From Chiloscyllium plagiosum (lineage: Eukaryota): DNA of 20,000 bases. The notes under the pieces are model-generated. The model was given only the letters and a program-made list of their open reading frames with translations. It had not been told where the DNA came from and did no database searches. The position numbers and the translations under genes are program-made. The stretch is taken from assembly GCF_004010195.1 (NCBI RefSeq), contig NC_057719.1, forward strand, positions 26,042,114-26,062,113, read 5' to 3'. This document shows positions 1 to 19,723 of this stretch, in pieces. Position 1 is the first letter of the stretch; every line of letters starts with the position of its first letter.

Positions 1-1195
1 GAGGAAGGGAAGCAGTGTCGGTCCAATTTCCCTTGTTATTTTCAGTTCCTGGTCCTGAATCACCATGGGCCAAAACTAAGCCAAATAAAACTCAATTTTT
101 TGGGGGCCATTCAGAAACAAAGATTTTAACTGAGCCTTAGGCAAAATACATTTTACATTTCACACTTTTGACAAATAACTTAAGCAGCTGAAAGATTTTT
201 AGTTATTGATATGATAAAGAAAAGAATACACTGACCTGGATAAACATTGGGACATTAAAAATTGTATCAGCGATTTGTTTTGACATTGAAAGTTTTTTTT
301 TTGGTCACATAATTGATGGTTGGTTCCCTTCACAAATTATTTAAAAAGGAACCTTGTGCTTATCCATTGCAGTAAAGGGCAGCATTTTGCCTCAAACACA
401 ATCAATCAAAATAAATACTGAACTGCTGTGGAAATACAAACTAGGAATTTCAAAGAAAAATGCAAAGCAAGCAAAATATTTAGGTTAAACTATCCCGCTG
501 AGTCTTAATTAAGCAGCCTTTGTCCATATCTGCCATTAGATGTTAATTTTCTGTTTATTACGGTTATATTCGACAGTTTCTACGCTTGAATATTATTTTG
601 TTTCAATAAATAAATAGCAATGTTACAAAGGAATATATGTAAAGCATTTGTGATAGATTTAAGAGCTAGTGCAAGATCATGAGGAAGTGCAGTAGATAAA
701 TCACTATCTTAGGCAATCCTTTAGCATCAGGATGACTTGCTTCTACGCCAGTGCAATGGCTGATACATCCAGTGTGTGCTCTGCAGACTGCCACATGTGA
801 GACAAGTGCTTGCAGGGAATAGTTTGCTGGCTTATAGTCACAGCCACACCCCTGTATGTTCCCTCGAACTGTCTCAATGTGCTCAGTGCCTTCCTTCTGG
901 TATGAACCTTCCCTATTTGTATCAGTTCCCAGGTAGGGATACCCATGAATCAATAGAGATGTTTGATTTCTACAGGGATGCTTTTGGGGGCATCCCTGAA
1001 ATGTTTTCTTATCTGTCAGTATCTAGAACAGATTCACTCGAACTTGAATTGCGGCTACCTGGATTGACCTGGGGAAGATGCAGCCTGAAAATTATGTTGA
1101 GTCACTTATTAATCCTTTTAGACTGGTGCTCCAACAGCCATCATCTGAATCAAGGCTGTTAAATGGTCAATGGAACAGACTATTTCAGGTAGGAG

Positions 1196-1398
1196 CTGAA
1201 AATGTGTTGCTGGAAAAGCGTAGCAGGTCAGGCAGCATCCAAGGAGCAGGAGAAAATTCGGGCATAAGCACTTCTTCACGCTTATGCCCGAAACGTCGAT
1301 TCTCCTGTTCCTTGGATGCTGCCTGACCTGCTGCGCTTTTCCAGCAACACATTTTCAGCTCTGATCTCCAGCATCTGCAGTCCTCACTTTCTCTCAAA
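1196..1398. mobile_element. Short Penelope-like (family A) terminal unit arranged as an inverted repeat around a disrupted hammerhead core
   Basis: Arms ~1193-1269 and 1280-1361 are near reverse complements, followed by the PLE 3' end (..tcctcactttctc, 1393). The right arm starts gcttatgcccGAAAcgtcgatt (HHR stem II/III). Flanked by TATTTCAGGTAGGAG (1181-1195) and TACTTCAGGTAGGAG (1399-1413), 14/15 identical. Confidence 0.85.
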
Positions 1399-1572
1399 TA
1401 CTTCAGGTAGGAGACCAGTATTGACGTCCTGTAGAATATGCAAAAACGGTTTGTTATGGGCCAGAACAAAACCCCTCAAAATATATTAAGAAGCTTGACT
1501 AACCTATTCTTATTTTAAAGGTAAATGTAAATGGTCGCAGTCCAGATGCAATTCAATTGGTCAAACTACTCA

Positions 1573-2253
1573 CAGGAGTCGCAGGTAGCTAGGATAGTGA
1601 AGAAGGCGTTTGGTATGCTTTCCTTTATTGGTCAGAGTTGTGAGTACAGGAGTTGGGAGGTTATGTTGCAGCTGTACAGGACATTGGTTAGGCCACTGTT
1701 GGAATATTGTGTGCAATTCTGGTCTCCTTTCTAATGGAAAGATGTTGTGAAATTTGAAAAGAGTTCAGAAAAGATTTACAAGGATGTTGCCAGGGTTGGA
1801 GGATTTGAGCTATAGGAAGAGGCTGAATAGGCTGGGGCTGTTTTCCCTGGAGCGCCAAGGCTGAGGGGTGACCTTATAGAGGTTTACAAAATTATGAGGG
1901 GCATGGATAGGATAAATAGACAAAGTCTTTTCCCTGGGGTTGGGGAGTCCAGAACTAGAGGGCATAGGTTTAGGGTGAGAGGGGAAAGATATAAAAGAGA
2001 CCTAAGGGGCAACTTTTTCATGCAGAGGATGGTATGTGTATGGAATGAGCTGCCAGAGGAAGTGATGGAGGCTGGTACAATTGCAACATTTAAGAGGCAT
2101 TTGGATGGGTTTATGAATAGGAAGGGTTTGGAGGGATATGGGCCGGGTGTTGGCGGGTGGGACTAGATCGGGTTGGGATATCTGGTCAGCATGGACGGGT
2201 TGGACCGAAGAGTCTGTTTCCATGCTGTACATCTCTATGACTCTATGACTCTA
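1573..2253 (+). mobile_element. 5'-truncated CR1-clade LINE (HER1-like), ORF2 C-terminus plus 3'UTR
   Basis: Peptides LYRTLVRPLLEYCVQFWSP and KIMRGMDRINRQSLFP..RTRGHRF..FF.QR.V.VWNELP..FKRHLDGFM, stop at 2166. The tail is (CTCTATGA)2CTCTA at 2233-2253. Internal stops and frameshifts are present. Confidence 0.95.
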
Positions 2254-2697
2254 ATCAAAGACAAGCAAAATACAATTTATTCATACACTATAGTTAAAAT
2301 ACAACAACAAAAAAAGAAAAGAAAGGAATTGGCTTAGCTGTAACTCTATTGCAAAGCTTAACAGAATAATAGATTAGCTAGCTGCTAAACAGTAAATGTT
2401 CGAATGTAGTAACATCCCATAAACACACCCTTGGCAAAAGGTGAATTTAGAAAAAATTGCCTCACATGCAACTCCAGCAGTCCAGGAGGGAAAAATATCA
2501 CAAGAACTCAGAGAGTGTAACAAGAAGTGATGTACTAAAGCAATCGAACCAGCAGCAACAGTTACTGAAAATTAAAATCCTGCTTCGTTGGGAGCATGAC
2601 CACACCCATTCAGGCTGCCTCTATTGTTCCAACTCCAAAAAAAGCCCCAAGGCCTTACAAGCTTTATGAGCTTTCAATAGACATCTTTGCACCTCTG

Positions 2698-3458
2698 CAG
2701 AAAGTGAGGACTGCAGATGCTAGAGAGTCAGAGTCAAAAAGTATAGCACTGGAAAAACACGGCAGGTCAGGCAGTATCCGAGGAGCAGAAGAGTCGATAT
2801 TTTGGGCATAGGCCTTTCATCAGGAAGGGGGCTGAGAGACAAATACAAGGGTGAGGGTGGGGCTGGGGGTAAGACAGCTGGGATGGCGATAGGAGAATGC
2901 AGATGAGATAGGTCAGTGGGGAGGGTGATTTGATGGGGTGGGGGGTGTACCTAATGAGGGAGTCACAGAGGGAATAGTCTCTGCGGAATGCAGATGGAGA
3001 TGGGGAGGGAAATATATCTCTGACCGTACACTTCCCTCCTCACCTCCATCCAAAGCCCCAAAGGATGTTTTTACAGCCGGAAGAGCTTTTCATGCACATC
3101 CACTCACCTCAACTGTCATGTCCATTGCTCTCGATGTGGTCTCCCCTACATTGGGGAGACAGGACGTCAACTTGTGGAGTGTTTCAGGGAACATCTCTAG
3201 GATACATGCAGCAAATGACCTCACTGCCCTGTGCCTGATCACTTCAAATCCCCCTCCCAGTCCACCACGAACCTCCTCCACCGCCAAATCCAGGCCACCC
3301 AACATCTGGCAGAAGAACATCTCATCTTCTGCCTTGGGACCTTTCAACCACACAGCATCAATGTCAACCTCAGCAGTTTCCAAATCTTCCCTTCCCCACT
3401 TCATCCCAGCCTCGGATACTGCCTGACCTGCTGTGCTTTTCCAACACCACACTCTTCA
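2698..3458. mobile_element. Internally deleted, partly inverted Penelope-like element with GIY-YIG endonuclease remnant
   Basis: The plus arm, read from 3087, gives FSCTSTHLNCHVHCSRCGLPYIGETGRQLVECFREHL*..HF..EEHLIFCLGTFQPHSINV (GIY-YIG C-terminus, with stops). The minus arm (2698-~3020) has the PLE terminus, a degenerate HHR (~2793-2826) and RDIFPSPSPSAFRRDYSLCDSL. TSD is ATCTTTGCACCTCTG (2683-2697) / ATCTTGGCACCTCTG (3459-3473). Confidence 0.9.
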
Positions 3459-3859
3459 ATCTTGGCACCTCTGTCTTAAACCCTTTCTTTAAAGAGACAG
3501 GACAAAATAAACCTCTTAACGCCACACTATCGTCACAAGTGACTGTAGTTTTCAGAAAAAAAGTGGATGAAATGCAAGACAACCCATGCCTGGTCATTCA
3601 AAATGGCATAGAGAGGAATAAACATCAGAAACTGTTCAAAAATTTAAAGAAGCAGAGAAAAGGATTTCATATATTCATATGTTAGTACCACACACCACGA
3701 TTCCAGTTCGTGAGGGCAGACAATTCATTCTTGACCACTTTACGCCATCATCTACACTCAAAATTACCCTCAATGTTTACTGTTATAAAGTGGAATCTTA
3801 CAGACAAATTACAACACTACAGTAGGTCTGAATGTCCAACTGAGCCTCTGAAATCTAAA

Positions 3860-4610
3860 TGAGGCCGCAGTTTGTGCATGGGCAGTTATCGGTTAGATTT
3901 TAGTGCCCCCACCGTGAATGTTTTCGTCATGTCAGAGGCACTTAAATAGATTGGGTAGCTTCACCACCTTCGCAAGTACCCTCAAGCTGCCCCGATAATA
4001 CAGGGGCACTGAAATCAGCCTGCTGCTTTTAAATAAATAATTAATGGTAACTTAGGCTGGTCAACAAGTTTGTGTAACAAGCTGCACATGCCAAAATACT
4101 TGGCACAGTCAACTTGTTTAAGAACTTGTATAAGAAAAGGCCAGAAATGAAGTGGGAGGTGGGGGGGTGATGGTGGGAGCACACCATTTCAGGAGCGTCA
4201 TTTGTGCATTGGTGCAACCCTCCAGCAAGCTCAAGACTGCTGCCATCCCAACACAACACCATTCACCACCTTCCTTTTCATGCCATCTACCCACCAGAAG
4301 TCAATCCCCATCCTCCTCCCTCTCCCATTTCCCTCTGCACCAAAGATGCAGTCAACCTTGGGATTCAGCAATCTGGGAAGGCCATGATCCCCTTTAAGCT
4401 CCTTTCTGGCAGTGCCCACTTCTGACGTCTGGCACTGCCAAGAGTGATGGAACTACCAGCTAATCAGATAGGTCAGCAATTCCCATTGGGCAGCCCTCCT
4501 GCTGAGTCGGCTGGCTGCAGCATGTTGTGGCTACAGTATGGTTTGTATGGAGACAAACTGGCTACTGGCTGATTGGCCAATACCCATCTGTCCAAAACAA
4601 ATGGGTTGAA
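3860..4610. repeat. Unclassified GC-richer interspersed repeat remnant with internal inverted repeats
   Basis: 14-bp inverted repeat at 3896-3909/4003-4016 (13/14) and a perfect 10-bp inverted repeat at 4407-4416/4431-4440. Composition differs from the AT-rich flanks. Boundaries are approximate. Confidence 0.3.
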
Positions 4611-5018
4611 TTCAGATCACTGAACTTCTGAGATATTATAGATCTATTTTCATTTCAAGCAATTCTGTGGCAGATATTAATTAAATGCGAGAAAATCTGC
4701 AAGGATGAATTAACATATTACTGCATAATCACCCAGAGATTCTTGTTAGAAAACCTGGGTCTGTAATGCAGCTATAAAAACTTACAAATGTAAAATAAAG
4801 TCATTTACGAAGCCACTTTCTTTCTGTGCAGAAAGTATTAAATGACAATATTCAAATAAATGCTTTTACTAATTGGTTTGCAATGGACATTCTGTTTTTG
4901 ATCAAGAACTAGCACATAAATGGTAGTAGAGGTAGCAACTTCAATTTGCTTTCATTTTTCATTAATGAATGGGTCTCTTGCCTTGTTTCCTTTCAGAGCT
5001 CTTTTACCTGTATTAAGA

Positions 5019-5354
5019 GGGGTGGCATGGTGGCTCACTGGTAAGCACTGCTGCCTCACAATGTCAGGGACCCGGGTTGATTCCACCCTCCAGCGACTGC
5101 CTGTGTGGAGTTTCCATATCTGCCTGGGTTTCCTTCAGGTGCTCTGGTTTCTTCCCACAGTCCAAAGATGTGCAGGTTAGGTGGATTGGCCATGCTAAAT
5201 TGCCATAGTGTTCAGGGATGTGCAGGCTAGGTGGGTTAGCCACGGGGAATTATAGGGTAGGGGCATGGATCTGGATGGGATGCTCTTTGGAAGGTTGGTG
5301 TGGACTAGTTGGGCCAAATGGCCTGTTTGCACATTGTTAGGATTCTATGATTCT
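5019..5354 (+). mobile_element. tRNA-derived SINE, HE1/V-SINE type
   Basis: A box TGGCTCACTGG (5031-5041) and B-box-like GGTTGATTCC (5075-5084). V-domain-like core (tgtgtggagttt..ggtttcttcccacagtccaaagatgtgcagg). The CR1-like 3' tail ends gattctatgattct. Confidence 0.9.
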
Positions 5355-6701
5355 CGTACGAATAGCTTCTGTATATAAGCATTCGGAAATTATTCAATTT
5401 CTTCACCCTTTTCTGCTATAAGCCTGTGAATTTTTGCCTGCCTTCAAAAGGAAACACCTAACTTCCTCTGGAGACTTCAGCAGATGCTGCAGCTGAGCCC
5501 AGCGGCTCAGTCTGTGGGCGATTCAGATGTGAACATGTGCTCTCTCGCTCCACAGCCCAGGAATAGACAGCCAGTGGACCTCTTCATCCTGACAGCTTCT
5601 TCCAGCCGAGTGCTCAGGCCATGTGTTTTCAAATCATCTGCTTTCTCTACTGGTTTCTTATTTATATTGTTCAATTTTTGAATAGCTTCACCTCACCCAA
5701 ATCTCTGAGTGATTATGCATGAGAATGCTAATTAATCCTTCCAGTCTTTCCCTCATTTTCTTGATGCCCCTCTTTGTCACAGTACTGCTTGAAGTGGAAA
5801 ATGACATGGAGTATCTTGGAAGGTGCACTGCTCTGAAATTCCTCAATTTCTATTCTACAGAAGCAAGATGCTATAATTACAAGGGGTGGAGTGCGGGGTT
5901 GGGATATGGACTGCTTGCTCCATTGGAGGGGACATCAACCAGTTTTAATTCCCACATGCAATGTTACAGAAGATTGACTTGAATTTATTTGGGAATTAAA
6001 ATTGACAAAGGTGTACAGTAGGCTGCTGATGGCACCTTGCCCAATTTATAATATCAGAAATTGAGATTAGCCCTCTTAATCCTAATAATTTGTCTAGTCT
6101 CCATGCTGTTACATTTTGTCTTATACTAAACAATTGAAATTTTGTTTACAAAACCTCCTGTGACATTGAATTTGATGAAAACAATCTGCATCCCCTTTAC
6201 CTATTCAATTAGTTGCATCTTCAAACACAGAAATGTTTGACAAATATGACTTGCCTTTAAAAAAGTCAGCCCTCATGATCCTTGATTGTTCAACTGAACA
6301 TTCAGTAAATTGAAAGCACACACAAACAATAATCTGTACACTAGCAAATATGTCACTAAAGAACCAAGCATGTCATCATTTAGAGACAGGAAAACAAAAA
6401 CAATAAAAGGATGGAAAAGTAATTGAAATTATTATCAATACATTCCCTCCATTTTCAATGGGCAACAAACCTTTACCATTCAATTGGCCTTTCATTTGGT
6501 AAACGTTTGAATAGTAAGGGCAAAACTAATGAGCAGAGCCCTGTTGAAGTGCTTGGGTAGGGGTGAGCAGAGACTCCCAGCCACATCAGCAATACCGTTA
6601 GATAGTATCCATGATTTGGAGATGCCGGTGTTGGACTGGGGTGTACAAAGTTGAAAATCACACAGCACCAGATCATAGTCCAACAAGTTTAATTGGAAGC
6701 A

Positions 6702-6736
6702 CACTAGCTTTCGGAGCGACGCTCCTTCATCAGGTG
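6702..6736 (-). ncRNA. Minimal type I hammerhead ribozyme (PLE-associated), intact core
   Basis: The minus strand reads CAC-CUGAUGA-A-GGAGC-GUC-GCUCC-GAAA-GCU-A-GUG. This gives stem I CAC/GUG, a 5-bp stem II, palindromic stem III AGCU and a CUA cleavage triplet. Confidence 0.8.
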
Positions 6737-6740
6737 ATAT

Positions 6741-6775
6741 CACCTGATGAAGGAGCATCACTCTGAAAGCTAGCG
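6741..6775 (+). ncRNA. Minimal type I hammerhead motif, partly degenerate
   Basis: CAC-CUGAUGA-A-GGAG-CAUCA-CUCU-GAAA-GCU-A-GCG. The core is intact, stem II has a G-U pair and stem I has an A/C mismatch. Confidence 0.6.
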
Positions 6776-7183
6776 TGCTTCCAATTAAACCTGTTGGACT
6801 ATAACCTGGTGCTGTGTGATTTTTAATGTTAGATAGTATAACTGGTGATGCACTCTGCCATTGATCTTAGACAGGAAATGGTTGAAGCATCTCAGTAACA
6901 CTGAAATGAAGAGGAGATCTGGAGTGGTGTACAGAAAGGTTTGACTGCGATAGAATGAACAACTAGTTTGTAAATGTCTGGAAAATTAAAGCCTTCCATT
7001 GCACATCTTGTAGAACTTCACAACAATGTTGATGTGTTCACAAGATCATTATTAATTTCACATTGGCTTGTCTATGAATATTCAGAATAATTTTTTTTCT
7101 ACTTCTGCTTTAAAATCTATTTCTTGCCCTTTCTCCACTCAAAGTTTAGCTCCAACATGGAGTGCAATTGTGACAATTTCTTT

Positions 7184-7268
7184 GAAGGGCTTTTGCCCGA
7201 AACGTCGATTTTCCTGCTCCTTGGATGCTGCCTGACCTGCTGTGCTTTTCCAGCACCACTCTAATCTA
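7184..7268 (+). mobile_element. Penelope family A terminal fragment beginning in the hammerhead core
   Basis: gaagggcttttgcccGAAAcgtcgattttcctgctccttggatgctgcctgacc.. Possible degenerate TSD at 7154-7170 / 7269-7285 (14/17). Confidence 0.8.
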
Positions 7269-7509
7269 AACATGGGGTGGAACTGCATAAATGCCGAAAA
7301 TCATATAGCTTATGAGCAAAATAGGCATTGCAGAGTACTCATACGCGAACTGTGGACATCAACAGGTTATTTTGTATTGTTTTTGGAAGGAGTGAGGAAT
7401 GTGAAGTGAGTGGTGCTTCACAGTCAAATGTAATCTGGCCTTCTCATGTTGTTCATGCGCATCAAATTCCACTAGGATCTCTGGATGACATTTGGAATGA
7501 TATCCCTGA

Positions 7510-7607
7510 CTGAATCATTGTGTCATTGTGGGTTCAACAGGAAAGCTGTAAATGTAACTGAAAGGTTTGGACTAAGACACTTGATTAAATGCATGCGAAA
7601 TGTGAAC
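7510..7607. repeat. 98-bp segment of the proximal LURAP1L 3'UTR, duplicated at 9038-9135
   Basis: Ungapped direct repeat at offset 1528, about 85/98 identical by hand alignment. Confidence 0.9.
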
Positions 7608-7633
7608 AACATTTTTTTTTATTTTCACATAAT

Positions 7634-8012
7634 TTATCCAAAACAATAATATCCATCATCAAAGTCATCTTTGGATTCTTTATTCATAGATTCACTGTTA
7701 AGTGAATCTGTTGTTACACATTCGTCTGAGAAGGGATCTAGGTCGGAAGGTGTGCAGTCACCTGGCAAGTCGTCAGCCAGCGTGTCCAGGTAACTTCCCA
7801 CTGAGATTTCATCAAGCCCATCACTGCCATCTTGCAGGCTATTCCAGCTGCCTTGGAGTGAAATGCTCTGGCTTTCTGCCAAGCTATAGAGACTGCTCGT
7901 CAAGCTGCTCCCCCTGCTCGCCATGTTGCCTTTCTCCTCTATTATCCACTTGATCGACTCAATACCTTCATTGATGGACAACAACTGATGTATCAATTGC
8001 CCTGAGGCGAGC
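7634..8012 (-). CDS. LURAP1L: Leucine-rich adaptor protein 1-like, terminal coding exon (apparent frameshift near 7991; possibly a pseudogene or assembly error)
   Basis: HQLLSINEGIESIKWIIEEKGNMASRGSSLTSSLYSLAESQSISLQGSWNSLQDGSDGLDEISVGSYLDTLADDLPG..PSDLDPFSD..YYCFG* matches the recalled vertebrate LURAP1L C-terminal half (RQLLVINESIESIKWMIEEK..SRGSSLSGSL..DGSDGLDGISVGSYLDTLADDVPG..YYCFG). ARLRAID at 8012-7992 matches the exon start VNLRATD but is in another frame. TAA is at 7636-7634. Exon 1 was not found in the window. Confidence 0.9.
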
Positions 8013-8408
8013 CGTAATCTGAACAGTGCAACGGCACCTTTTTTCTCTCTCACTGTTCCTTTTCCTTCCACCCTCATTGCTCAATCCAGGGACACTTTCA
8101 CTCAAGAGCTCCTACACCCAGACAGAGAGATGTTAGACCAGCATTGAACCTTGGATCTTCTTGGTCAGCCTGTCTCAGCTACACACTGAATAAATGTACA
8201 GATTCCTGAAGAGAACCCAAGCATCCACAATGAAATACACAGCTGCCATGTTCCAGAAGCAATTTTTAATTTTAATTTTGTTGCAATCCTGTTGGGGTAA
8301 TGCTATTTTCTTTACCCCAGTTACATTTATATAGGCTATAAAAGAACCAAACAATGACAATATGCACCGGTAAACACTTTAATGAAATTTTTGGTTTCTA
8401 CAAATAAG

Positions 8409-8808
8409 TAGAGTCATACAATGATACAGCACAGAAACAGGCCTTTCGGCCCAAATCGTCCATGCTGATCAGGCTAGTCCCTCTAAACCCTTCCTATTCA
8501 TATATCCATCCAGATGCCTTTTAAATACTGTAATTGTACCAGCCCCACCACTACCTCTGGAATTCCATACAAACACCACCCTCTGCGTGAAAAAAAAATT
8601 GCCCCTTAAGTGTCTTTTAATTCTTTCCCCTCTCACTTTAAATCTAAGCCCTCTAGTTTTGGACTTCCCTATCCTGTGGAAAAGACCTTGGCTATTTATG
8701 CCCCTCATGATTTTATAAATCTCTATAAAGGTCACCCATCAGCCTCCTATGCTTCAGGGAAAGAAGTCCCTGACTATCGGGCCTCTCCTAATAACTCAAA
8801 GCTTCCAG
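8409..8808 (-). mobile_element. CR1/HER1-like LINE 3' fragment
   Basis: The minus peptide IEIYKIMRGINSQGLF..KTRGLRFKVRGERIKRHLRGNFF.TQRVVFVWN..FKRHLDGYMNRKGLEG is homologous to the copy at 1573-2253. Confidence 0.92.
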
Positions 8809-9037
8809 TCAAATGCTATTTCAGCAAATATCTGTAAAACCCCTGGCTATCAAATCCACCCACAACCCAGCTTGGCATGCACATTTGCAGATATCAAGTG
8901 AAGACAGACTTGCCTTCAAGGCTCTCATTATGGAAAGGTTTCCCGAATCTATAGAGCTGTGCCATAGGAAGGTCCAGATCATCTGTCATTGTTTCAAATA
9001 TGTTATCATTTCATGAGATTCAGGCAATAAAAAGGAT

Positions 9038-9135
9038 CTGAATCTTTGTGTCATTGTGGGTATAACAGGATAACTGATGATGTAACAGAAGGGTTTGGAC
9101 TAAGACACTTGATTAGGTGCATGTGAAATGTGAAC
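9038..9135. repeat. Second copy of the LURAP1L 3'UTR segment, in the presumed intron
   Basis: Direct repeat of 7510-7607, about 87% identical. Confidence 0.9.
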
Positions 9136-9267
9136 TACAGTGATTAATTTCCAGGTTCCAATTCATGGGTAGTCTTCTCTAAACCAATCAAAGCTTTTGG
9201 AGCTGCAAAACTTTTGCTCACTAAAAATATATTTGAGTGGATTTTTTCTGAAACAGCCATAAAGTGA

Positions 9268-9600
9268 GAAATCATACAACACCAGGTTATAGTCCAACAG
9301 GTTTATTTGAAATTAGAAACTTACGGAATGTAGCCCCTTCATCAGGTGAAGTGAGAGGGAAGCACACAGAACACAGAATTTATGGGCAGAGAGAGCAAGG
9401 GCAGAGAGATCAAAAGATCATACAAATGGTGTCAGTGTTGAATAATAAATCTCTGCAGGTGACCAGGAATGTTAGTGTGTGTGAGTGTCAACAGCTGAAT
9501 AACAAGTGAAGGGGTGACCTATAATCCAATTAAATGAGGCAGAGAGATAATTACGAAAAATTAAAAGTACGGTGGTGCCGACGACAGACCACATGACTGG
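9268..9600 (-). mobile_element. Penelope family B-related 3' fragment with degenerate hammerhead
   Basis: 9268-9347 aligns with 6654-6736 (aaatca.acaacaccaggttatagtccaacaggttta..ccttcatcaggtga). The GAAA box is mutated to GTAA. The right boundary is approximate. Confidence 0.7.
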
Positions 9601-9896: not shown

Positions 9897-11044
9897 CCCC
9901 TCCCCACTCCAAACCTTTTCCAGCATAATCTTTGCTATGTTTATAAAGCTACAATTGAATTAGACATCTTGCAGAAATCCAGCTCAGTACATACTGAGCA
10001 AAAATCAAGAATCTGATTGCATCCTGGCATGAGCTGCCCATCAGGGCTACATGCTAATGCCAGAGTGAATTCAGTGGCAGAACACTGTAAATGGAGCACA
10101 GGTTCCCCTTAGATCTGTTGCTATAGCAATGACATTTGCAGACACCTCCTCACTTCTCATGTGCTGAGCATGTGCAGAGAGCCAAATGTGGCACTTCAGC
10201 TTCAGAATATCCATCCCATAATGATGAAATGGTAACTGTTGCTCAGTAAGTGTATTTTGTGAGAACGGCCACACATAACATGGAATAAATGTACTGTATA
10301 TTTTCACATAATCTTTCAAAATGTAACTGTACTAAAAATAGATATAGCCCCCTCTGCATATTCCAATGGTCAGTGGACTTCAGTCTTGCCATCAGTTCTT
10401 CCATGAGGGAAATTACACACCTTGTTTGAAGCTCCTTGAAAATCAAGAGGCATTTTTGCATTCACTGTGGCCTAGTTAAACGTACGCAGTAGTATAATCC
10501 TTGGGGAGGAAGCAGATCCAACTGCTTCTAGTATGGAGGTATCAGGCACAACTGAGGTGAAGGGTAGCAACAGCAGTAGCAGTTCTGTGTTTCAGTTGGA
10601 TTGTAATATTGTGTTGGTGTGTGACAAAGATTTACAAACATACTCTTTCCAAAAACTGCTTCTTTAGCACTTAACACCAACTTTTCCATTTGACAAACAC
10701 AATTCATTTCTGTCCTCCAATCTTTCTGTCCAGATTTTAGAAGGAGAATATGTGCAATAGTGTGGCAAATGATGGCAGTCCAGAACCAATTAGTTTCCAA
10801 TGAGTTTTTATGAAATAAATATACTTTACAGAAGGAAAATATCTTAAAAATGCCCATGGCAGGAGGTAATGTACCTGCTGTTCCATACAGAATCTAACAG
10901 ACAACATGCATGTGTGTGTTATGGACATGGGTTGAGTCAGAGTGACTGCTTTGCCAGCCAACATGCCAAAAGGAAATCACCACCATGCCCTGGTGAATTA
11001 TAATTTTGAGAGTGGGGCCCTCTGCCCCTCAGTGAGAGGAAGTG

Positions 11045-11489
11045 TAGAACCATAAAAAATGACACAGCACAGAAGCAGGCCATTTGGCCCATCGTGTCCA
11101 TGCCAGCCCAAAGAAACCTAGATGCCCTTCAATCCCATCTTCCTGCACATAAACCCTGCTGAGAAACTGCAGGAAGGAAAGGGCTTATGCCCGAAACGTC
11201 GATTCTCCTGTTCCCTGGATGCTGTCTGACCTGCTGCGCTTTTCCAGCAACACATTTCCAGCTCTGATCTCCAGCATCTGCAGACCTCACTTTCTCCTCC
11301 AGGAGCCTTCTCTGTTCCAAGAAAAACAACCTCAACTTCCCCAATTTCTCCTCATGGCAGGAATTCTCCAGCCCTGGCAACATTTTAGTAAATCATCTCT
11401 GCACTCTCTCCAGAGCAATTATGTCCTTTAATGTGGTGACCAATACTGCACACAACACTCCAGTTATAATCTCACCAGTGGCCTATACA
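11045..11489 (-). mobile_element. Older CR1-clade LINE 3' fragment interrupted by a Penelope unit
   Basis: The 3'UTR-like acagcacagaagcaggccatttggcccatcgtgtccatgcc resembles 8426-8467. The minus peptide MLPGLENSCHEEKLGKLRLFFLEQRRL is CR1 ORF2-like. Confidence 0.8.
11180..11299 (+). mobile_element. Penelope family A terminal unit beginning at hammerhead stem II
   Basis: agggcttatgcccGAAAcgtcgattctcc...ctcactttctcc is nearly identical to 1280-1393. Confidence 0.9.
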
Positions 11490-11918
11490 GGAAGTACCAC
11501 CCTCGAGAACTGGCAGGCCATCAAACTGAGTGCCAGCTCAGGCAGTCCCTGAGCTCAGTAGTGGGCATTGCTGGGGTTGAAATAAAAGAGCACAGTGAAG
11601 ATGAATGGCTACAAAAGTGTGAGAATTTCCAGGGCTTGGAGTAGAAAGGTATCTGAGATCATTGGGAAGTGGGCTCAGAGGCCTGCATCAGGCTGGCTTT
11701 GAAAGGCAGGTGGCACAAAAGGTTTGCAGGGGGTGGGGATGTTGATATGTTGGGGTGGTGCCAATGAGGCACACAAAGTAGGGCGCTCCATTTCCTTCCT
11801 ACAATTTCTCAGCTGGATCACAAAGATCACCTGTCTGCCTGCCCATGCCATCCAGGACAGTGTGACATGTTACTCTTAGTGAAGGATTTGCCCAACTAAT
11901 CAACTGTCCATTTTAATT

Positions 11919-12107
11919 GCCTTCACTGTCGCAAGGTCAAAATCCCAGAATTCACTCCCTCAGGGCATTGTGGGTCAACCTACAGCACATGGACTGCAGC
12001 AGTTCAAGAAAGCAGCTCACCACCACCTTCTCAAGGGCAACTAGGGATGGGCAATAAATGACTACCCAGCCAGTGATACCCAAATACCATGAATGAATAA
12101 ACAAAAA
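11919..12107 (+). mobile_element. 3' end of a second CR1/L2-clade LINE family
   Basis: Homologous to 13953-14125 (ttcaagaa.gcagctcaccacca.cttctcaa..gcaa..gggcaataaatg..ccagccag) and ends in an A-rich tail. Confidence 0.8.
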
Positions 12108-12589
12108 ATGGCAGGAGGGTTTGCAATCAGCCCATAGGCTAGCTAATCACATGTATATGTGTGATATACACCGCATGCCCTCACTGACAAAAATACACCA
12201 ATTTGTAAGGGGGAGCAGTCTGAGGACTTTTTAAAGTAGGCTATTGCTTGGAATTATTTCAAAATAACAATCATTTACAAATTCACCTCTGTCATAATAA
12301 GAATTAAAATTGAACTTCAACTAAATCCTACAAGATGGAAAGCAAAGAAAAACATGCAACAGCATTGTGGTCAGGTTGTGACGATGTTATGTTTGGAGGT
12401 GTGGGGCAATGAGCATGTGCAAATAGTGTCCTCAACTTCATAGGAGAAGAAACCTGCCAGTCAATGAGCAGTCTCCAGCAGTCCATTGTAGCACACTATC
12501 AACCTGGTAAAAAATGATTGGAGCATGTCCACTGCATGGTCTGGCTAGTTTATCACTAGTTTTTCCAAAGTAGTTGAGTGGATAGTTAG

Positions 12590-12663
12590 GTTGCAGATCA
12601 GCCATGATTTCCCGAATGCCAGAACAGGTTCGAGTCTCAAGACTCTATTTCTGCTCCTTTGTT
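12590..12663 (+). mobile_element. Short decayed CR1 3'UTR remnant
   Basis: gatcagccatgat..gaatg..agaacagg.tcgag..ctgctcct resembles the CR1 3' terminal motif (from recall only). Confidence 0.4.
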
Positions 12664-12946
12664 AATAATCTTGAAACAGAGCCTTCTTCTCACATTTATC
12701 AATCCACACCTTGCTTTTCAGTTTCTGTCAAGGATTCCTAAATAAAAAGGACATTGTCAGTGCTTCAGCATAGCTCTGATAAAGAATTTAGTCTCCAGGA
12801 ATATTTGCACCAATTTTTTGTGCATAAGGCATATCATTTCTACTCTGCTAACTCTTCTGCATCTATATTCAAGTTCAGGAAAGAATTTTCTCTCTTCAAA
12901 ACTTCCTTCCTTCAGACTGAGTTTTTTTTTATTTACAGAATGAAAG

Positions 12947-13199
12947 CATTCCTAATTGCCCAGAGGGCAGTTAAGAGTCTGGTGTCACATGTAGGACAGA
13001 CCAGTTTCCTTCCTAGAACTACATTAGTAATCTAAATGGGATTTTCTGTCAATCAACAATGGATTCATGGTCATTATTCCAGATCTTTATCAAATTCAAA
13101 TTCCACCATCTGTCATGACAGGATTTGAATCTGGATCACTGGAACATCAGTTGGTTTCCTGGATTAACAGTCCAGTGACAACACTTGGCTACTGCCACC
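12947..13199 (-). mobile_element. tRNA-derived SINE sharing its 3' tail with the second LINE family
   Basis: The minus strand has a tRNA-like head (ggtggcagtagcc..agtg..actggactgttaatccag..B-box-like GATTCAAATCC). Its tail gggcaattaggaatg matches the LINE end gggcaactagggatg (12036-12050). Confidence 0.75.
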
Positions 13200-13404
13200 C
13201 CATTTGAGAAACTGCCTTTTGGAATTCCAGTATCACTTCATATTTTTTTTGCTTCACTGCCAAAGTTTGAAAGTTTTTCCTACTGTCCACCACAGATTCT
13301 CTAGATGACCACAATAATTTACATCGATATACTAGGCTAATAATTTAGGTCTCCAAAATACAAAGACAAATTAATGAATTATTTCTTATTTTGTCTTCGA
13401 GCAG

Positions 13405-14125
13405 GAACATTCATGTCATACAAGTGCCAGGCAATAACCATCTAATCACTGCTCCTTGACATTCAATTTAGTTACCATCACTGAATCCCCCACTAATAAC
13501 ATCTTTGGGGTCACTACTGACCAGAAACTCAACTGAACTCACCACAGACACAGTGGCTACAAGAGCAGATCACCTGTTAGGAATACTGTGTTGAGTAACT
13601 CACCTCCTGACTCCCAAAACCTGACCACCAGCTACAAGGCATAAATCAGGAGCATGGTGGAATACTCCTGGATGGGTGCAACTTCAACAATACTCAAGAA
13701 GCTTGGCACCAGCAAGGCCAAAACAGCCCGCTTGATTGGCATTATATCCACAAGCATCCACTCCCTCCACCACTAGCGCCCAGTAGCAGAAGTGAAAGAT
13801 GTACTGCAGAAATTCATCAAAGATCCTTGGACAACACCTTCCAAATCCACGACCACTTCCATCTAGATTGATGAGGGCAGCAGATACATGGGAACACCAC
13901 CACATGCAAATTCTAAGCCACATACCATCCTAACTTGGAAATATATCACTGTTCCTTTACTGCCAGTGGTTTAAAATCCTACCATTGTGGGTCAACCTTC
14001 AGCATGTGAATTGCAACAGTTCAAGAAGGCAGCTCACCACCAGCTTCTCAAAAGCAACTTCTAACGGGCAATAAATGTTGACCAGCCAGCGATGCCCACA
14101 TCCCATGAGTAAATTTTTTTAAAAA
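13405..14125 (+). mobile_element. Second CR1/L2-clade LINE family, decayed ORF2 C-terminus and 3' end
   Basis: Decayed peptides KCQAITI, ITESPTNNIFGVTTDQKLN*THH (LGVxxDxxLxW motif) and YKA*IRSMVEYS. The 3' end matches 11919-12107. Confidence 0.85.
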
Positions 14126-15371
14126 CCCAACTTTTGCCATAATGTATTGATTACGCTTTGTCTGGATGCAACTCCTCCACACTCCACAAAGCCACCCCTG
14201 GCCCTAATTAACTACCTTGCCTCAGGCAAGGAAAGTGACTGCTTTTCCAACAGGAAAACAAGAGCGGACTACCTTCTGGGTGGAGGTGGGAAAGGGCCTC
14301 CACTTACCCCCATCTGGTAGCTTTCAGCTACACCCCTTCCCTTGCATAAAACCACCCCCTCACCCCATAACCCCATCCCAAGATCTTTTAAAACAAGCTC
14401 ACTCACGTTCTCAGCTTCCTAGCTGTGCAGGCCAGGCCTCCGGTGACAATCTCCAGTTCTCAGGGACTCATGATACACTGGAGAAGGCTGTCAGTCAGCC
14501 TTCTTACTGGTGGGGACAGGGAGTTAGTCACTTCTAAAGACACCCAGCACCACAACATCCAGAGCACTAAGTGAGGGCTATTGTTTGACCAGAGCTTGAA
14601 AATCAAGAACTATGACTCAGTCCAACAAAAGTCCCTTGCTGGTGCTTTCAATTCACCATTAAGTTCAGAATGTAAAGGTGCAAGAAAGGATCCTGAACTC
14701 ATTCACTCTATATTTCTTGCAATCGCTACATACATGACGAGCATGTGGATATGTCTAAAGGAAAGAGATGGAAATGATCTTAGCCAAATTATAAACAGAC
14801 ATGAGAGGTAGCTCTTGCTCAGCTTGTTTTTGACAGCAATACATTTTAGAGAATTAGTTCAATTTGAGCAGGACAAGGATTTTGTTCCATCTGAAAAAGA
14901 ATGAATTCTGAATGAATAAGGAACAATTGGATGAAAGAGACATTTCATTTTCAGCAGGAGAGGACTCATCCTTCCCAACAAAGAGGTTATGTTACAAAGG
15001 AGCTGGCTGTTTCACAGCTGAGAGCTTGTTAATTTATTCTACACTAGATTGTTGGCCTGTGGTGTGGTAGTCATCTCAAGAAGGTCTCATACCTTTAGAG
15101 AACTCAATCGTCTTCTGAATCTTTGCTCCAGGTTTGGGTGGAAACCACTGCATCAGCAAAACAAAAACTTGCTGCATAAATACAACCTGAGGTCATTGAA
15201 AAAAAACATTTTGGACAGACTTATGGTCATGAGTCCCTGAGACAGGGGGCTTAACCTAACAAAAATCTTTCAAAGTGGATCCATTTAATAGCGTCAAATA
15301 AGTTTGCAACTGAACATAAAATATTCCTTATTAACTTGTTTTTCTGAGTTGATATTAGACACAACCATGGT

Positions 15372-15492
15372 GAGGTAAAAACAATGACTGCAGATGCTGG
15401 AAACCAGATTCTGGATTAGTGGTGCTGGAAGAGCACAGCAGTTCAGGCAGCATCCAAGGAGCTTCGAAATCGACGTTTCAGGCAAAAGCCCT
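15372..15492 (-). mobile_element. Penelope family A-related terminal unit starting at hammerhead stem II, inserted in a SINE remnant
   Basis: The minus strand starts agggcttttgcctGAAAcgtcgatt. Perfect 12-bp TSD CACAACCATGGT at 15360-15371 and 15493-15504. The flank (ctggagttacacatagaccaga) resembles the SINE at 12975-13003. Confidence 0.9.
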
Positions 15493-15880
15493 CACAACCA
15501 TGGTAATACAGGACTGGAGTTACACATAGACCAGATTGGGTAAAGTCAACAGATTATTATCCCTGAGCAGAAATTATGGAACTGTTTGCATTCTATTATA
15601 ACACCAGTGATGAAAGGAATTAATTATGAGGGTGTTAGATGTGATGCTGATCAAACAGGTTGTTTTAACCTGGAATGGTCGAGTTTCTCAATAGTTGTTG
15701 CAATTACATTCATTCAGGTAAATGGGCAGTATTCCATCACAGTCCAGACTTGTGCCTTGTAGGTGGAAGACAGATTTTGAGGAGACAGGAGCTGAGCTTC
15801 TGTAGTCACTGCAGAATTCCTAGCCTCTGATCTCCTCTTGCAGCCACAGTATTTACGCAGAATGTTGATAGCATGAGGAA

Positions 15881-16640
15881 GAATGTATAACTTTTAGATT
15901 AATTGATATTTTGTATTTTGTATGTTAAGAAGGTGTAAAGCGGTTTTAGTTTCAATTTTATTTAAAAGAGTTCTTTTGTAGTTTTGGCAACAGGGAGTCT
16001 GGAGGCTTGGGCATGCATTTTTAATGAGGTTTTACAATCCTTGCAGTGAAGGAAGAAGGATTTGTCGTTCAATACGCAAAAAACATCTAGTGGCAGGGGT
16101 TGGGAGACACAAAGAAAAATCTAGAAGGCAGTCAGCTGATGTGTGCCAGAGAAACACTGCTGGAACTTATGATGAGGGAAATCGTGTTTGTTCTGAAGTT
16201 AAAAAAATACTGATTTTAGTTTGTATTTTATCTTTAGAGACTCAGGGAGAAAGGTACCAGCCAAAGCATCTAGGTTATATGCAGAAATTTCTGGAAGGAA
16301 ATCAGGACTGAGTGCCAGCCTGAGCAAGAAATCTTGGTTTGGAGATAGTGATCTCTTCAGTAGAGATTTGGCATTTGTAAGGATATTGCTGGCTTGGTAT
16401 GAAATTGAATCTTTCTCTGATGTCTGTAATGAAATCTTTCCAGTTGTTACCTTTAGTGTAGTATAATTTATGTTTTACTTGTTTATTAAATGGTTTACTC
16501 CTTGTGTTAAAATCCTCCGACAAGACTATTGTGAAAGTGTTCGGTAACCAACCTCACAGTTAATAACAAAACAATTTCGGTCCTATTAAACCCGATCTGA
16601 AACATCCAATATTAAAAACAGCTCGGGTTAAAAATTAGAA
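15881..16640. mobile_element. ~760-bp non-coding insertion, possible solo LTR
   Basis: It splits a collinear LINE and is flanked by GAGGAA (15875-15880 and 16641-16646). It starts TGTATAAC (15884) and ends GTTAAAAA, a degenerate inverted match. Confidence 0.45.
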
Positions 16641-17035
16641 GAGGAATCAGCAATTATAATGCCATTGAATGTGACGGGTTAATGATTATGCCAGGCAAAG
16701 TTACACGCCTGCATGTGATTCAGGTCTTGCTGTAATCGAAATGGATTGCTTCAGGATCTATGGAGTCACAGATGGTGCTGAAAAATTGTGCAACCAGCAA
16801 ACGACCCCATCTTTGACTTTATGAAAGGGGGAATGTTATTGATGAAGCAGCTGAAGATAGTTGGGTGTTGAACACCACCCTGAGGAATTCCTTCAGAGAT
16901 GTTCTGTGGATGAGATAACTGACCTTTAGCAAACACAGCCAACTTCCTTTGGTGCTTTGTGTGTTTCCGACGAGTAAAGGGATGCCCCCCTCCCTGATTC
17001 ACATTTACTCCAGCCCCACTAGGATTACTTGATAC

Positions 17036-17192
17036 CATAAACAAAAACAAAAATTGCTGGGAAAAACTCAGCAGGTCTGGCAAGGTCTGTGGAGAAAAAG
17101 CAGAGTCACTATTTCAAGACTAGTGACTTTTCTTCAGAACAATTTCAGTTTGTGTTTCTGATTTCCAGCATCTGCAATTCCTTGTTTTTTAT
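17036..17192. mobile_element. Penelope-like family C terminal unit with short inverted arm and degenerate hammerhead
   Basis: aaattgctgggaaaaactcagcaggtctggca.. resembles the family A terminus. The minus strand ~17140-17105 reads gtt-CTGAAGA-aaagtcactagtctt-GAAA-tagtgac. It continues on the plus strand as tttccagcatctgca. It interrupts the LINE. A related scrap lies at ~9612-9648. Confidence 0.65.
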
Positions 17193-18451
17193 GCTTAATG
17201 CTCAGTTAATTGATGTCAAGGCAGTCACCCTCCCTTCTCTACTTGAGTTCAGCTATTTTGTCCAATTTTGGACCAAGCCTGGAATGACTTCACGGGCTGA
17301 ATGGACTAATCAGCAGGTTATTGTTGATTAAGTCCTACCTGATAGCACAGTTGATGACATCTTTCATCATTTTACTGATGATCAAGAGTAGACTGATGGG
17401 GTGGTAATTGGTCAGCTTGGATTTTTCATGCTTTTTATTGTCAGGACAAAGGTGGGCAATTTTCCACATTGTTGGGTGGATGTCAGTGCTGTAGCTTCAT
17501 TGGAACAGCTTGGCTAATGGTGAAGCAAGTTCTGGAACACCAGTCCTTAGTACTAATGCCAGAATATTGTCAGGGCCCAGGGCTTTTGCGGTATCCAGTA
17601 CTTTCAGCCATTTCTTAATATCACATGGAGTGATTCAAATTGGCTGAAGATTGGCATCTGTGCTGCTGGGGATCTCTGGAGGAGGCCACGATGGATCATC
17701 CGCTCAATACTTCTGACTGAAGATTGTTACAAATGTTTCAGCCTCATCTTTTGCAGGAGATTTTGGACTTTCCCCATTATTGAGGGTGGACCTATTTATT
17801 GAGCCCTGTTCTCCAGTGTATCTATTGTCTACCACTACTGAAGACTGGATGTGACAGGACTACAAATTATAGATCTGATCCATTGATTGTTGAATCAAGT
17901 TGCACTGTCTATAATTCACTTCTTATCCTGTGTCATAGCTTCACCAATTTTACACAGCTGGTGCTGCTTCTGGTTTGTACTCTTCATTTATGCAATGCCG
18001 CTCCATGGGCTTGCTAATAATGGCAGAGTGGGGGATATGCTGGGCCATGAGGCTAGATTATAGTTGTATATAGTTCTGCCAATGATGGTCCACAGCACCT
18101 TATGAATGTCTAGATTTGAGTTGTTAGATCTAAGCAAAATTTCTCACATCTAGCACAAGGGTGGTGACACATACAAGATGGTGAGTACCTTTACTGTGAA
18201 GGTAGGACCTTGTTTCCACAAGGACCGTGCAGTGGTCACTCCTACCGATATGGTCATGGACAGATGAATCTGTTAGGCAGATTGTAGGTGGGTGATGTAC
18301 AGGAACAGCTTGGCTGAGGCTGTACTTATTTTGTCTATTGCCACAACATTATCCGGGCCTGTAACCTTTACACTATCCAGTGCCTCAGTCCACAATGTCA
18401 AGTGGTGTGAATTGAAGTGGGCTGAAGACTGGCATTAATGAAGCTATGGAG

Positions 18452-18601
18452 CAGTGTTCCCTCTAAGCTGTTCAGCCATTCTGAGGTTCTACACACCCCT
18501 AATTGGTGTGTCAATGCATTGGTTTCTGGTTTTGGAGGGTGCTGCCATGCACAGACCTTGGGAAGTCCATACGCTGATAAAAATAATCAGAGGGAGCATT
18601 G
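18452..18601. mobile_element. 150-bp MITE with hAT-like terminal inverted repeats
   Basis: CAGTGTTCCCTCT ... AGAGGGAGCATTG (11/13 inverted match), interrupting the LINE. No 8-bp TSD is recognisable. Confidence 0.55.
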
Positions 18602-18720
18602 ATTGGGTGACACTGAGATGGAACTTCCATTTGACCTTTCAGTTGAATATAGTCATGCACATTTCAGCATTGTCTCTTGTGTTGATGTGCTGGGCTCATT
18701 AAAAGGGGAATATTTGTGGA

Positions 18721-18792
18721 ATTTTCTCTTCCACTTGGTAGTGTCATTGTCCACCAATTTTCACTTCCACTTGGTAGTGTCATTGTCCACCA
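18721..18792 (+). repeat. 36-bp tandem duplication (2 copies)
   Basis: ATTTTC(T/A)CTTCCACTTGGTAGTGTCATTGTCCACCA x2, 35/36 identical. Confidence 0.95.
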
Positions 18793-19104
18793 ACCTTCCT
18801 GATTGAATATGAAATATTGATCTGATTCCTTGGTTGTGGGAACCACTCAGCTTTGTCGATTGCATGCAGCTTCCTCTGTTTAATATGCAAGTAATTCTAT
18901 GTTGGAGCTGCACAAGTTGGCACCTCATTTTCAGGTATGCCTGTTGCTGCCAATGACATATTCCAAACTCATTTTCTATGAGGTTGATCTTCTACCTGAT
19001 GGTAAAATGACAGATATGCCTAACCATGAGGTTGCAAATTGTAGTTGAATATAATTCCAATGTTCCTCATGGATGCCTGTTTTTGTGTTGCTAAACCTGC
19101 TCTA

Positions 19105-19291
19105 AGAGAAAGTGAGGATTGTAGAAGCTGGAGATCAGAGATGAGAGTGTGGTGCTGGAAAAGCGCAGCAGGTCAGGCAGCATCTGAGGAGCAGGAAAAT
19201 CGACATTTGGGCATAAGGCTTATGCCTGAAAATTCTATTCTCTTGCTCCTCAGATGCTGCCTGACCTACTGTGCTTTTCCAGCACCACATT
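19105..19291. mobile_element. Short Penelope family A unit, inverted repeat joined inside hammerhead stem II
   Basis: Arms ~19148-19217 and 19218-19289 meet at gggcataag|gcttatgcct. Perfect 14-bp TSD CTAAACCTGCTCTA at 19091-19104 and 19292-19305. Confidence 0.9.
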
Positions 19292-19723
19292 CTAAACCTG
19301 CTCTAGATCTATCTCATTTATTTGGTGCAGGGTGTCCTCAATGCAAAGATGGGATTGTGCAGTCCTACTAATATTGTCCTGGGCACATATATTTGTGACA
19401 CATAGATTGGTAAGGCCAAGGTTTAATAGCTTTTCCCTCTTAGTTTTATCAGAGTTTGGTCAGCGGTGCTTTGTCCAAGCCTTAGTGCTACACATTGAAG
19501 GTTTTTAGAGTATTATGTTCCCATGCAATCCTCTGTAGTTCTCCTATATGATTTTCAACATTGAGGGTAGTAGCAATAAATATGCAGCAAGTTTTCTTGC
19601 CCAGAGTTGATCTGACGCTTTGAGACTCCATGGAATCTGGAGTCAATATTGAGGAGTCCTAGAGTCACTGTGTCCTGAGTGCTTTTACAGTGGCAACACC
19701 ACCAGTAGGATATTTCAGCTTTA

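What the first reader, a model, noticed from the sequence alone, without database searches (positions are those of the whole stretch)
1181..19305. Mini-Penelope units whose junctions cluster at the hammerhead core, with 12-15 bp TSDs
Seen: seven independent short inserts (1196, 6609, 7184, 11180, 15372, 17036, 19105) consist only of the last ~85-130 nt of a PLE, some with an inverted second copy. In all seven the 5' truncation or inversion junction lies between just 5' of stem I and stem II of the HHR. Four have clear 12-15 bp TSDs. Known: PLEs carry minimal HHRs in their pseudo-LTRs and often insert with inverted termini, and non-autonomous HHR elements (retrozymes) exist. Inference: the junctions sit about 18-35 nt upstream of the predicted cleavage site, so these are not simple copies of self-cleaved RNA. 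The folded ribozyme may act as a stop or template-switch signal for reverse transcriptase, producing a SINE-like class of hairpin insertions.
Basis: partly seen in the sequence, partly recalled or inferred. Interest (0 to 1): 0.72.

Follow-up and report, generated by a model that had tools for sequence, protein, structure and literature searches.

The report
Penelope run-off stubs with fixed start
These short inserts are real, very common end pieces of Penelope-type jumping genes whose front edge sits at nearly the same few bases across the genome, likely because the copying enzyme starts 95 or 131 bases into the element's RNA and runs off its front end, not because the folded ribozyme stops it.

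Summary
Ten of the 11 arms in the seven inserts begin at -5 to +11 relative to hammerhead core base C3; four TSDs are exact (12-14 bp). In 119 evenly spaced genome stretches, 79 of 136 family-A arms at risk ended in -7..+11, several times the rate elsewhere; family B behaves alike. In a young subfamily, 45 of 101 arms start at -6..-3, and 3' ends fall near +90 or +126. The edge lies beyond the whole ribozyme, not at its 3' foot, where a fold would stall reverse transcriptase. Minis show no variant separating them from long copies, so there is no sign of a separate SINE lineage. The unit continues into the ORF start, so it is the element's 5' UTR. Best reading (0.6): internal initiation, then run-off at the RNA 5' end, likely a start site at an initiator-like TCATTC. 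Hairpins would form when one cDNA from each initiation site (26 of 30 cases) anneal through short matches. No start site was measured. This scan has reported the same thing on other DNA, in this and other genomes.

The parts
1184..1195 (.). Left TSD of insert 1196 (right copy 1402-1413)
   Evidence: 12 bp exact, 15 bp with one mismatch
1193..1278 (-). Family A inverted arm without tail, 5' end at +1
1280..1394 (+). Family A arm with tail, 5' end at +10; predicted ribozyme cut after 1297
1402..1413 (.). Right TSD of insert 1196
6597..6608 (.). Left TSD of insert 6609 (right copy 6828-6839)
   Evidence: 12 bp exact
6609..6738 (-). Family B arm with tail and complete minimal hammerhead (core starts 6733), 5' end at -5
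6739..6826 (+). Family B arm without tail (core starts 6744), 5' end at -5
6828..6839 (.). Right TSD of insert 6609
7183..7269 (+). Family A single arm without tail, 5' end at +4; only a degenerate flanking repeat (7154-7164/7269-7279)
11179..11299 (+). Family A single arm with tail, 5' end at +6; no TSD; target deletion of about 230 nt
15360..15371 (.). Left TSD of insert 15372 (right copy 15493-15504)
   Evidence: 12 bp exact
15372..15492 (-). Family A single arm with tail, 5' end at +7
15493..15504 (.). Right TSD of insert 15372
17036..17140 (-). Family C (older) arm, core starts 17137, 5' end about -3
   Evidence: end read by eye against other family C copies
17140..17190 (+). Family C second arm with tail, starting well downstream of the ribozyme (about +70)
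   Evidence: sequence read directly
19091..19104 (.). Left TSD of insert 19105 (right copy 19292-19305)
   Evidence: 14 bp exact
19105..19217 (-). Family A arm with tail, 5' end at +11
19217..19293 (+). Family A arm without tail, 5' end at +9
19292..19305 (.). Right TSD of insert 19105
2699..3465 (.). Older, longer two-armed family A insertion with decayed coding-region DNA; not a mini
   Evidence: 66-79% matches to long copies
9261..9383 (-). Family B relative extending at least to -38; not a mini
19724..20000 (-). Young family A long copy running past the window end into an assembly gap; not a mini

Best explanation
The inserts are gene-less end pieces of endonuclease-bearing Penelope-like retrotransposons with a fixed front edge at the start of hammerhead helix I, and they are likely made when reverse transcriptase starts inside the element's RNA, about 95 or 131 bases from its 5' end, and runs off that end. 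Shown: the unit is -4 to +90, or -4 to +126 with the tail; the same sequence leads straight into the ORF start, so it is the element's 5' UTR as well as its terminus; minis match long copies in sequence; hairpins pair one tailed with one tail-less arm. Inferred: (1) -4 is the transcription start, at an initiator-like TCATTC overlapping helix I; (2) the RNA has the two initiation sites in its front repeat and again in its rear repeat, so the front pair gives minis and the rear pair gives randomly truncated long copies; (3) the endonuclease makes a staggered break of about 14-15 nt and each strand can prime one cDNA, one from each site; (4) the two identical cDNA ends anneal through 1-3 nt matches, often GAA with TTC of the core, which spreads junctions from -5 into helix II. 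The ribozyme is carried along uncut.
For: Young subfamily, 101 arms: 45 start at -6..-3 (19 at -4, 14 at -3); hazard 0.046/nt in -7..+8 against 0.005-0.010 upstream. 3' ends: 35 at +89..91 and 43 at +124..128, like the two internal start sites that bound the tail in the anole element (PMC11167929). Random sample: 79 of 136 (A) and 25 of 43 (B) arms at risk end in -7..+11. The tail runs on into shared sequence with an ATG about 35 nt later in L204, L213, L301, L357 and L378; one L378 arm starts at -3 and continues into it. Long copies encode RVT_1 (E 9e-8) and a GIY-YIG match (E 3e-4, just under the Pfam cutoff). 26 of 30 hairpins are tail plus tail-less, none tail/tail or short/short (p 1.5e-8). 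In 24 of 28 hairpin junctions the longer arm reaches -3 to -6; 17 have 1-3 nt overlap and 6 use the TTC/GAA register. TSD of 9 nt or more in 43 of 61 minis against 10 of 1200 shuffled pairs, mode 14-15. Most long family A copies read TCATT or Y-A at -6..-4, and family C copies show TCAGTT at the same place. D. virilis Penelope has an internal promoter in the pLTR (PMC2377424). The anole protein nicks and extends both strands, is predicted to be a dimer, and uses uncut RNA (PMC11167929).
Against: No transcription start was measured; RNA reads were mostly read-through of genomic copies and gave no start pile-up. A cap signature was not seen: the base before -4 was G in 7 of 19 (A 8, T 4), near chance. 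One ORF-linked arm in L378 extends to -18, so not every template ends at -4. Four ORF-linked front copies (L204, L213, L357, L378) carry a tail variant found in only 1 of 38 tailed minis, so most minis did not come from that source copy; one ORF-linked copy (L338) has the common form. Family B lacks a clear initiator and its edge is broader. No intact full-length tandem copy was recovered. None of 18 variants was shared by both arms in 28 hairpins, so single-RNA copying is not shown.
Confidence: 0.6

Rival explanations
1. The RNA 5' end at -4 is real but made after transcription: a longer transcript is trimmed by a 5'-to-3' exonuclease or processed until it meets the protein-bound ribozyme, and reverse transcriptase then runs off that end.
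For: In family A the edge coincides with the first base of helix I. No cap-derived G excess. The anole ribozyme folds or cleaves only with protein bound (PMC11167929).
Against: In family B the arms reach -5/-6, beyond its 3-bp helix I. The fold is weak (-7.2 kcal/mol). The initiator-like TC at -6/-5 is shared by families A and C and is not explained by helix pairing.
Confidence: 0.15
2. Minis copy themselves as a SINE-like class: a mini keeps the internal promoter, is transcribed into its flank and is copied in trans from the internal start sites.
For: Minis outnumber long arms (80 against 19). Internal initiation makes a defined RNA 3' end unnecessary. The Drosophila promoter is internal.
Against: No mini-specific variant above 2 of 80 arms and equal divergence to long copies; the family A tail types seen among minis also occur in long copies; hairpin centres are not inherited. 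A low level of re-copying cannot be excluded, because the copy would erase the flank.
Confidence: 0.08
3. The endonuclease or a repair step cuts longer cDNA or an integration intermediate at the ATT motif at -4, releasing the short unit.
For: The anole endonuclease prefers 5'-ATT-3' (PMC11167929), and family A has ATT at -4..-2.
Against: Family B has no ATT there in its long copies yet clusters in the same bin. Many ATT sites upstream show no peak.
Confidence: 0.07
4. One reading: the folded ribozyme stalls reverse transcriptase or forces a template switch.
For: A tail of ends runs from 0 to +11 into helix II, and a few ends lie at +20..23 and +30..31.
Against: Stalls are expected at the 3' foot of helices (+19, +31), where rates are at background; the mode lies 5' of the whole motif; the secondary peaks at +2 and +5 are accounted for by GAA/TTC annealing.
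Confidence: 0.05

Closest known systems
Endonuclease-positive Penelope-like elements, Neptune-type (pLTR, inverted 5'-truncated copy, 30-40 bp tail at one end; PMC8557442 passages, PMC3846280 passages)
   Same: RT plus C-terminal GIY-YIG with a CX4CxxC linker, tail on one arm only, inverted arm, TSD, heavy 5' truncation, hammerhead in the terminus.
   Different: Those passages describe truncation as variable and explain junction palindromes by self-priming on an antisense template. Here about half of all arms stop within a 19-nt zone with a sharp mode, and hairpins pair one arm from each initiation site.
Poseidon_Ac of the green anole (PMC11167929, parts 1-2 of 4 read)
   Same: Two internal reverse transcription start sites bounding the tail, both strands nicked and extended, ribozyme cleavage not needed.
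   Different: Its ORF starts at helix II; here the likely ATG lies about 35 nt past the tail. The text read reports no fixed 5' edge of genomic copies; its Fig. S2 could not be seen.
Minimal type I hammerheads of metazoan PLEs (PMC4209133, parts 1-2 of 4 read)
   Same: Palindromic helix III without a loop, extra base before helix II, most copies single, some close and on opposite strands, ascribed to truncated PLEs.
   Different: That text does not map breakpoints. In D. virilis an intron ends at helix I, whereas here no AG acceptor precedes -4 and no shared upstream exon is seen.
Non-LTR retrozymes (10.64898/2026.07.22.740005, part 1 of 5 read)
   Same: Short, non-coding, type I hammerhead, derived from PLE pLTRs.
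   Different: Retrozymes are tandem repeats cut at the ribozyme; these are single or head-to-head, do not start at the cut site and often lack part of the core.
L1 twin priming (recalled, not read here)
   Same: Both target strands prime cDNA and the products join by microhomology.
   Different: L1 twin priming copies two different parts of one RNA; here both arms copy the same part from two fixed start sites.

Membership tests
Endonuclease-positive PLE (Neptune-type) | RT followed by C-terminal GIY-YIG in one ORF of the parent element | tested here: met
   RVT_1 above cutoff in L214; GIY-YIG E 3e-4 (21.5 bits, cutoff 22.6) in L215; family B and C long copies carry homologous coding DNA
Endonuclease-positive PLE (Neptune-type) | CX2-5CxxC linker between RT and endonuclease (PMC8557442 passage) | tested here: met
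   CX4CxxC in translations of L214, L215 and others; no tree was built, so the clade rests on this motif
Endonuclease-positive PLE (Neptune-type) | Terminus equals the start of the next unit (pLTR), with optional 30-40 nt tail | tested here: met
   Tail of about 36 nt (+90 to +126) continuing into the ORF start
Endonuclease-positive PLE (Neptune-type) | Inverted copy at the 5' side and TSD | tested here: met
   30 of 61 minis called inverted; TSD of 9 nt or more in 43 of 61
Endonuclease-positive PLE (Neptune-type) | Intact pLTR-ORF-pLTR master copy | tested here: inconclusive
   Walked about 3 kb upstream over several searches; no complete copy recovered, many assembly gaps
Minimal type I hammerhead | CUGANGA, helix II, GAAA, palindromic helix III, NUH site, short helix I | tested here: met
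   no Rfam hit
Minimal type I hammerhead | Self-cleavage | not testable with these tools
   No inserts start at the cut site, which says nothing about activity
Non-LTR retrozyme | Head-to-tail tandem units with complete ribozymes, boundaries set by the cut | tested here: not met
   Single or head-to-head; 0 of 156 ends at +28; one three-unit tandem (L378) has unequal units
SINE (independent non-autonomous lineage) | Own lineage with diagnostic changes and a fixed inherited structure | tested here: not met
   No variant above 2 of 80 mini arms; centres differ; tested on one young subfamily only
SINE (independent non-autonomous lineage) | Own promoter and transcripts | not testable with these tools
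   Reads could not show starts

The most novel reading that the evidence does not exclude
In these Penelope-like elements the transcript starts on the first base of the hammerhead, and a protein dimer bound near the RNA's front primes one cDNA from each cut strand at the two internal start sites. The stubs are strong-stop-like products of the normal first step, the same step that would build the inverted pLTR of full insertions. Hundreds of thousands of genomic stubs would then record the PLE integration mechanism base by base.
Probability: 0.4. Interest if true: 0.7.

Novelty: new variant of a known kind. Interest (0 to 1): 0.42.

Why it matters
How Penelope-like elements integrate, why they have inverted ends with a tail on one side, and what their ribozyme does are open questions with one in vitro system. 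A fixed 5' edge, two fixed 3' edges and strict tail/no-tail pairing give exact predictions: product sizes of 95 and 131 nt, a start site at -4 and one initiation site per strand. The existing anole assay and a 5'-end mapping experiment can test them. For annotation, these stubs are abundant (about 149 family-A and 47 family-B arms per Mb in the sample) and should be filed as PLE by-products, not as a new SINE, MITE or microRNA class. The architecture itself is known, and this scan has noted the pattern many times.

Tried and rejected
Rfam scan: only weak microRNA-like hits from the hairpins, all below gathering scores; no hammerhead hit. Self-cleaved RNA as template: rejected, 0 of 156 ends at +28. 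A 3' splice site at helix I as in D. virilis: rejected, because there is no AG before -4 and the bases 5' of the edge are TSD, filler or the inverted arm, not a shared exon. Cap-derived G: inconclusive, 7 of 19. Variants shared by both arms as a sign of one RNA template: 0 of 18 in 28 pairs, too few variants to decide. RNA evidence: no RNA holder listed; raw single-cell reads X20 were 95-97% run-on into unlike sequence with no start pile-up, X21 gave no reads, and contig runs cannot show starts; 160 X20 reads did lose their match at L213:784, which is -4, echoing the genomic edge. Full-length master copy: not recovered; the search hit inverted arms by mistake. Empty sites in relatives: no relatives are held for this genome; only two window inserts could be checked against other copies of the host repeat. 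Artefacts set aside: the -200..-148 bin (reference length limit), three family B ends at -144 (a reference holding an inverted arm) and seven young arms at -174 (an indel in the reference copy).
Full report
Coordinates below are relative to the first core base of the hammerhead (C3 of CUGANGA = 0).

Observation in the window. All seven inserts are present. They belong to three terminus families: A (1196, 7184, 11180, 15372, 19105), B (6609) and an older C (17036). The motif is a minimal type I hammerhead with a loopless palindromic helix III; Rfam does not detect it. Ten of 11 arms start between -5 and +11; the second arm of 17036 starts near +70. Four TSDs are exact at 12, 12, 12 and 14 bp. 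7184 has a weak offset repeat; 11180 lies in a target deletion of about 230 nt; the flanks of 17036 overlap by 8-16 nt against other copies of the host repeat.

Parent element. Walking upstream from the copy at 19724-20000 gave long copies with RVT_1 (E 9e-8) and a GIY-YIG match (E 3e-4, just under cutoff) and a CX4CxxC linker, the Neptune-type mark named in PMC8557442 (passages). Long B and C copies carry homologous coding DNA. Breakpoints of long copies are scattered. In five loci the tail continues into shared sequence with an ATG about 35 nt later, so the terminus is also the 5' UTR of the next unit. No complete master copy was found.

Is the clustering real? I took 119 stretches of 10 kb at round coordinates on 30 large contigs (1,148,996 non-N bases) and found copies with probes lying downstream of the ribozyme. 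Family A: 171 hits after removing C-type hits, 170 aligned, 156 above the score cut, 27 of them censored by gaps, edges or reference length. Ends per bin (ends of arms at risk): +20..35, 12 of 156; +12..19, 6 of 143; -7..+11, 79 of 136; -27..-8, 9 of 54; -47..-28, 3 of 45; -87..-48, 4 of 41; -147..-88, 2 of 33. The mode is -3 (14) and -4 (11); none is at +28. The -200..-148 bin (14 of 24) is inflated by the reference limit. Family B: 54 hits, 46 kept, 25 of 43 end in -7..+11; three ends scored at -144 are a reference artefact. The bin was chosen, so the p values (1e-32 and 1e-8) are descriptive; the young set below is an independent sample.

Base-level map. A 26-nt probe for one young subfamily has 15,244 exact matches and 0 for the reversed control. 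I fetched the first 100 listed matches, all on contig C1, as 80 stretches. Of 101 arms, 75 start in -7..+8 and 45 in -6..-3 (19 at -4, 14 at -3); seven scored at -174 are long copies hitting a reference indel. The probe requires +8..+33, so shorter arms are not counted. 3' ends are bimodal: 35 at +89..91 and 43 at +124..128. Among 61 mini insertions, 43 have a flanking exact repeat of 9 nt or more (37 of 12-17 nt) against 10 of 1200 shuffled pairs; lengths include a few bases of overlap with the element ends. Thirty were called inverted; some with very short second arms were scored as simple. Of the 30, 26 pair a tailed with a tail-less arm, none pairs like with like, and 4 had an unclassified end. 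At 28 junctions, 17 show 1-3 nt overlap, 2 are blunt and 9 have inserts; 6 join -3 to +2 or +5 through TTC/GAA; in 24 the longer arm reaches -3 to -6. Mini and long arms differ from the reference at 11 of 4380 and 3 of 1041 sites, and no variant exceeds 2 of 80 minis.

Mechanism. A wall at -4 with a decaying tail downstream is what run-off at a template end followed by small losses would give. A structural stall would sit at the 3' foot of a helix (+19 or +31), where rates are at background, and the monomer fold is weak. The anole element starts reverse transcription at two internal sites that bound the tail, extends both target strands and uses uncut RNA (PMC11167929, parts 1-2 of 4 read). 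If the transcript begins at -4, initiation in its front repeat yields 95- and 131-nt products, the sizes seen. Most long A copies read TCATT or Y-A at this place and C copies TCAGTT, matching the initiator consensus as I recall it. D. virilis Penelope has an internal promoter in its pLTR (PMC2377424, part 2 of 4 and passages). Against this: no start site was measured; a cap G was not in excess (7 of 19); one ORF-linked arm reaches -18; a tail variant of four ORF-linked copies is in only 1 of 38 tailed minis; B has no clear initiator. I put this model at 0.6, post-transcriptional trimming at 0.15, self-copying minis at 0.08, endonuclease trimming at 0.07 and a ribozyme stall at 0.05.

Comparison with print. 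Inverted pLTRs, a one-sided tail, TSDs, solo pLTRs and junction palindromes are described (PMC3846280 and PMC8557442, passages). Scattered single and opposite-strand minimal hammerheads were ascribed to truncated PLEs (PMC4209133, parts 1-2 of 4). Retrozymes are tandem derivatives of pLTRs (10.64898/2026.07.22.740005, part 1 of 5). Seven searches (listings and abstract starts only for the other papers) showed no paper mapping a fixed 5' edge at helix I or strict tail/no-tail pairing. The library lacks most subscription papers, and Fig. S2 of PMC11167929, which plots genomic coverage on the template, could not be seen, so the edge may be visible there.

Earlier scan notes. My reading was written before I consulted them. 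326 findings in at least 32 genomes match the words, and several reach the same run-off or two-ended model, two of them in this genome. They are not independent support. I tested two of their leads: the cap signature was inconclusive, and variants shared by both arms were not seen here.

Verdict. A real, abundant, sharply bounded by-product of known Penelope-like elements. Not a new SINE class and not a ribozyme-induced stop, but a useful record of the integration step. New variant of a known kind; interest 0.42.

Noticed in passing
L378:420-680 (runs X15 and X4): Contigs show a recurring joint (depth 459 in X15, 95 in X4) where a unit starting at -4 or -5 is preceded by ORF-start sequence ending about 130 nt past the tail. 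It may be a template jump from the RNA front end, a third start region, or one amplified tandem locus.
   Followed up: no
L378, L357, L213, L204, L338: Tandem mosaics of ribozyme, tail and 20-130 nt of ORF start joined to another terminus at -3, -18, -70 or -95, suggesting repeated template jumps near the RNA front.
   Followed up: partly
L335 and L347: Two insertions 3.5 Mb apart share the same junction (-76/-149) and one flank, so one is likely a duplication or assembly copy; L380 and L382 have similar junctions with a 15-16 nt filler.
   Followed up: no
G000:C1:136150183-136153037 (L321-L326): Array of at least 13 units with 213-bp period containing about 100 nt of the element's proline-rich N-terminal coding region.
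   Followed up: no
L271, L314, L319, L320: The N-terminal part of the family A ORF contains a GC-rich, proline-coding repeat of about 36 nt, which likely hinders assembly of full-length copies.
   Followed up: partly
window 11040-11450: The 11180 insert interrupts a LINE-like 3' end with loss of about 230-237 nt of target and no TSD.
   Followed up: partly
window 7510-7611 and 9038-9139: Two 102-nt copies (86% alike) next to coding-looking sequence at about 7700-7990, possibly part of a processed gene copy or another repeat.
   Followed up: no
window 5010-5350, 1570-2230, 11930-12100, 13400-14120: Common interspersed repeats: a tRNA-type SINE, a CR1-like 3' end and two copies of another LINE-like 3' end (labels recalled, not searched).
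   Followed up: no
window 18721-18790: Direct repeat of about 35 nt in tandem.
   Followed up: no
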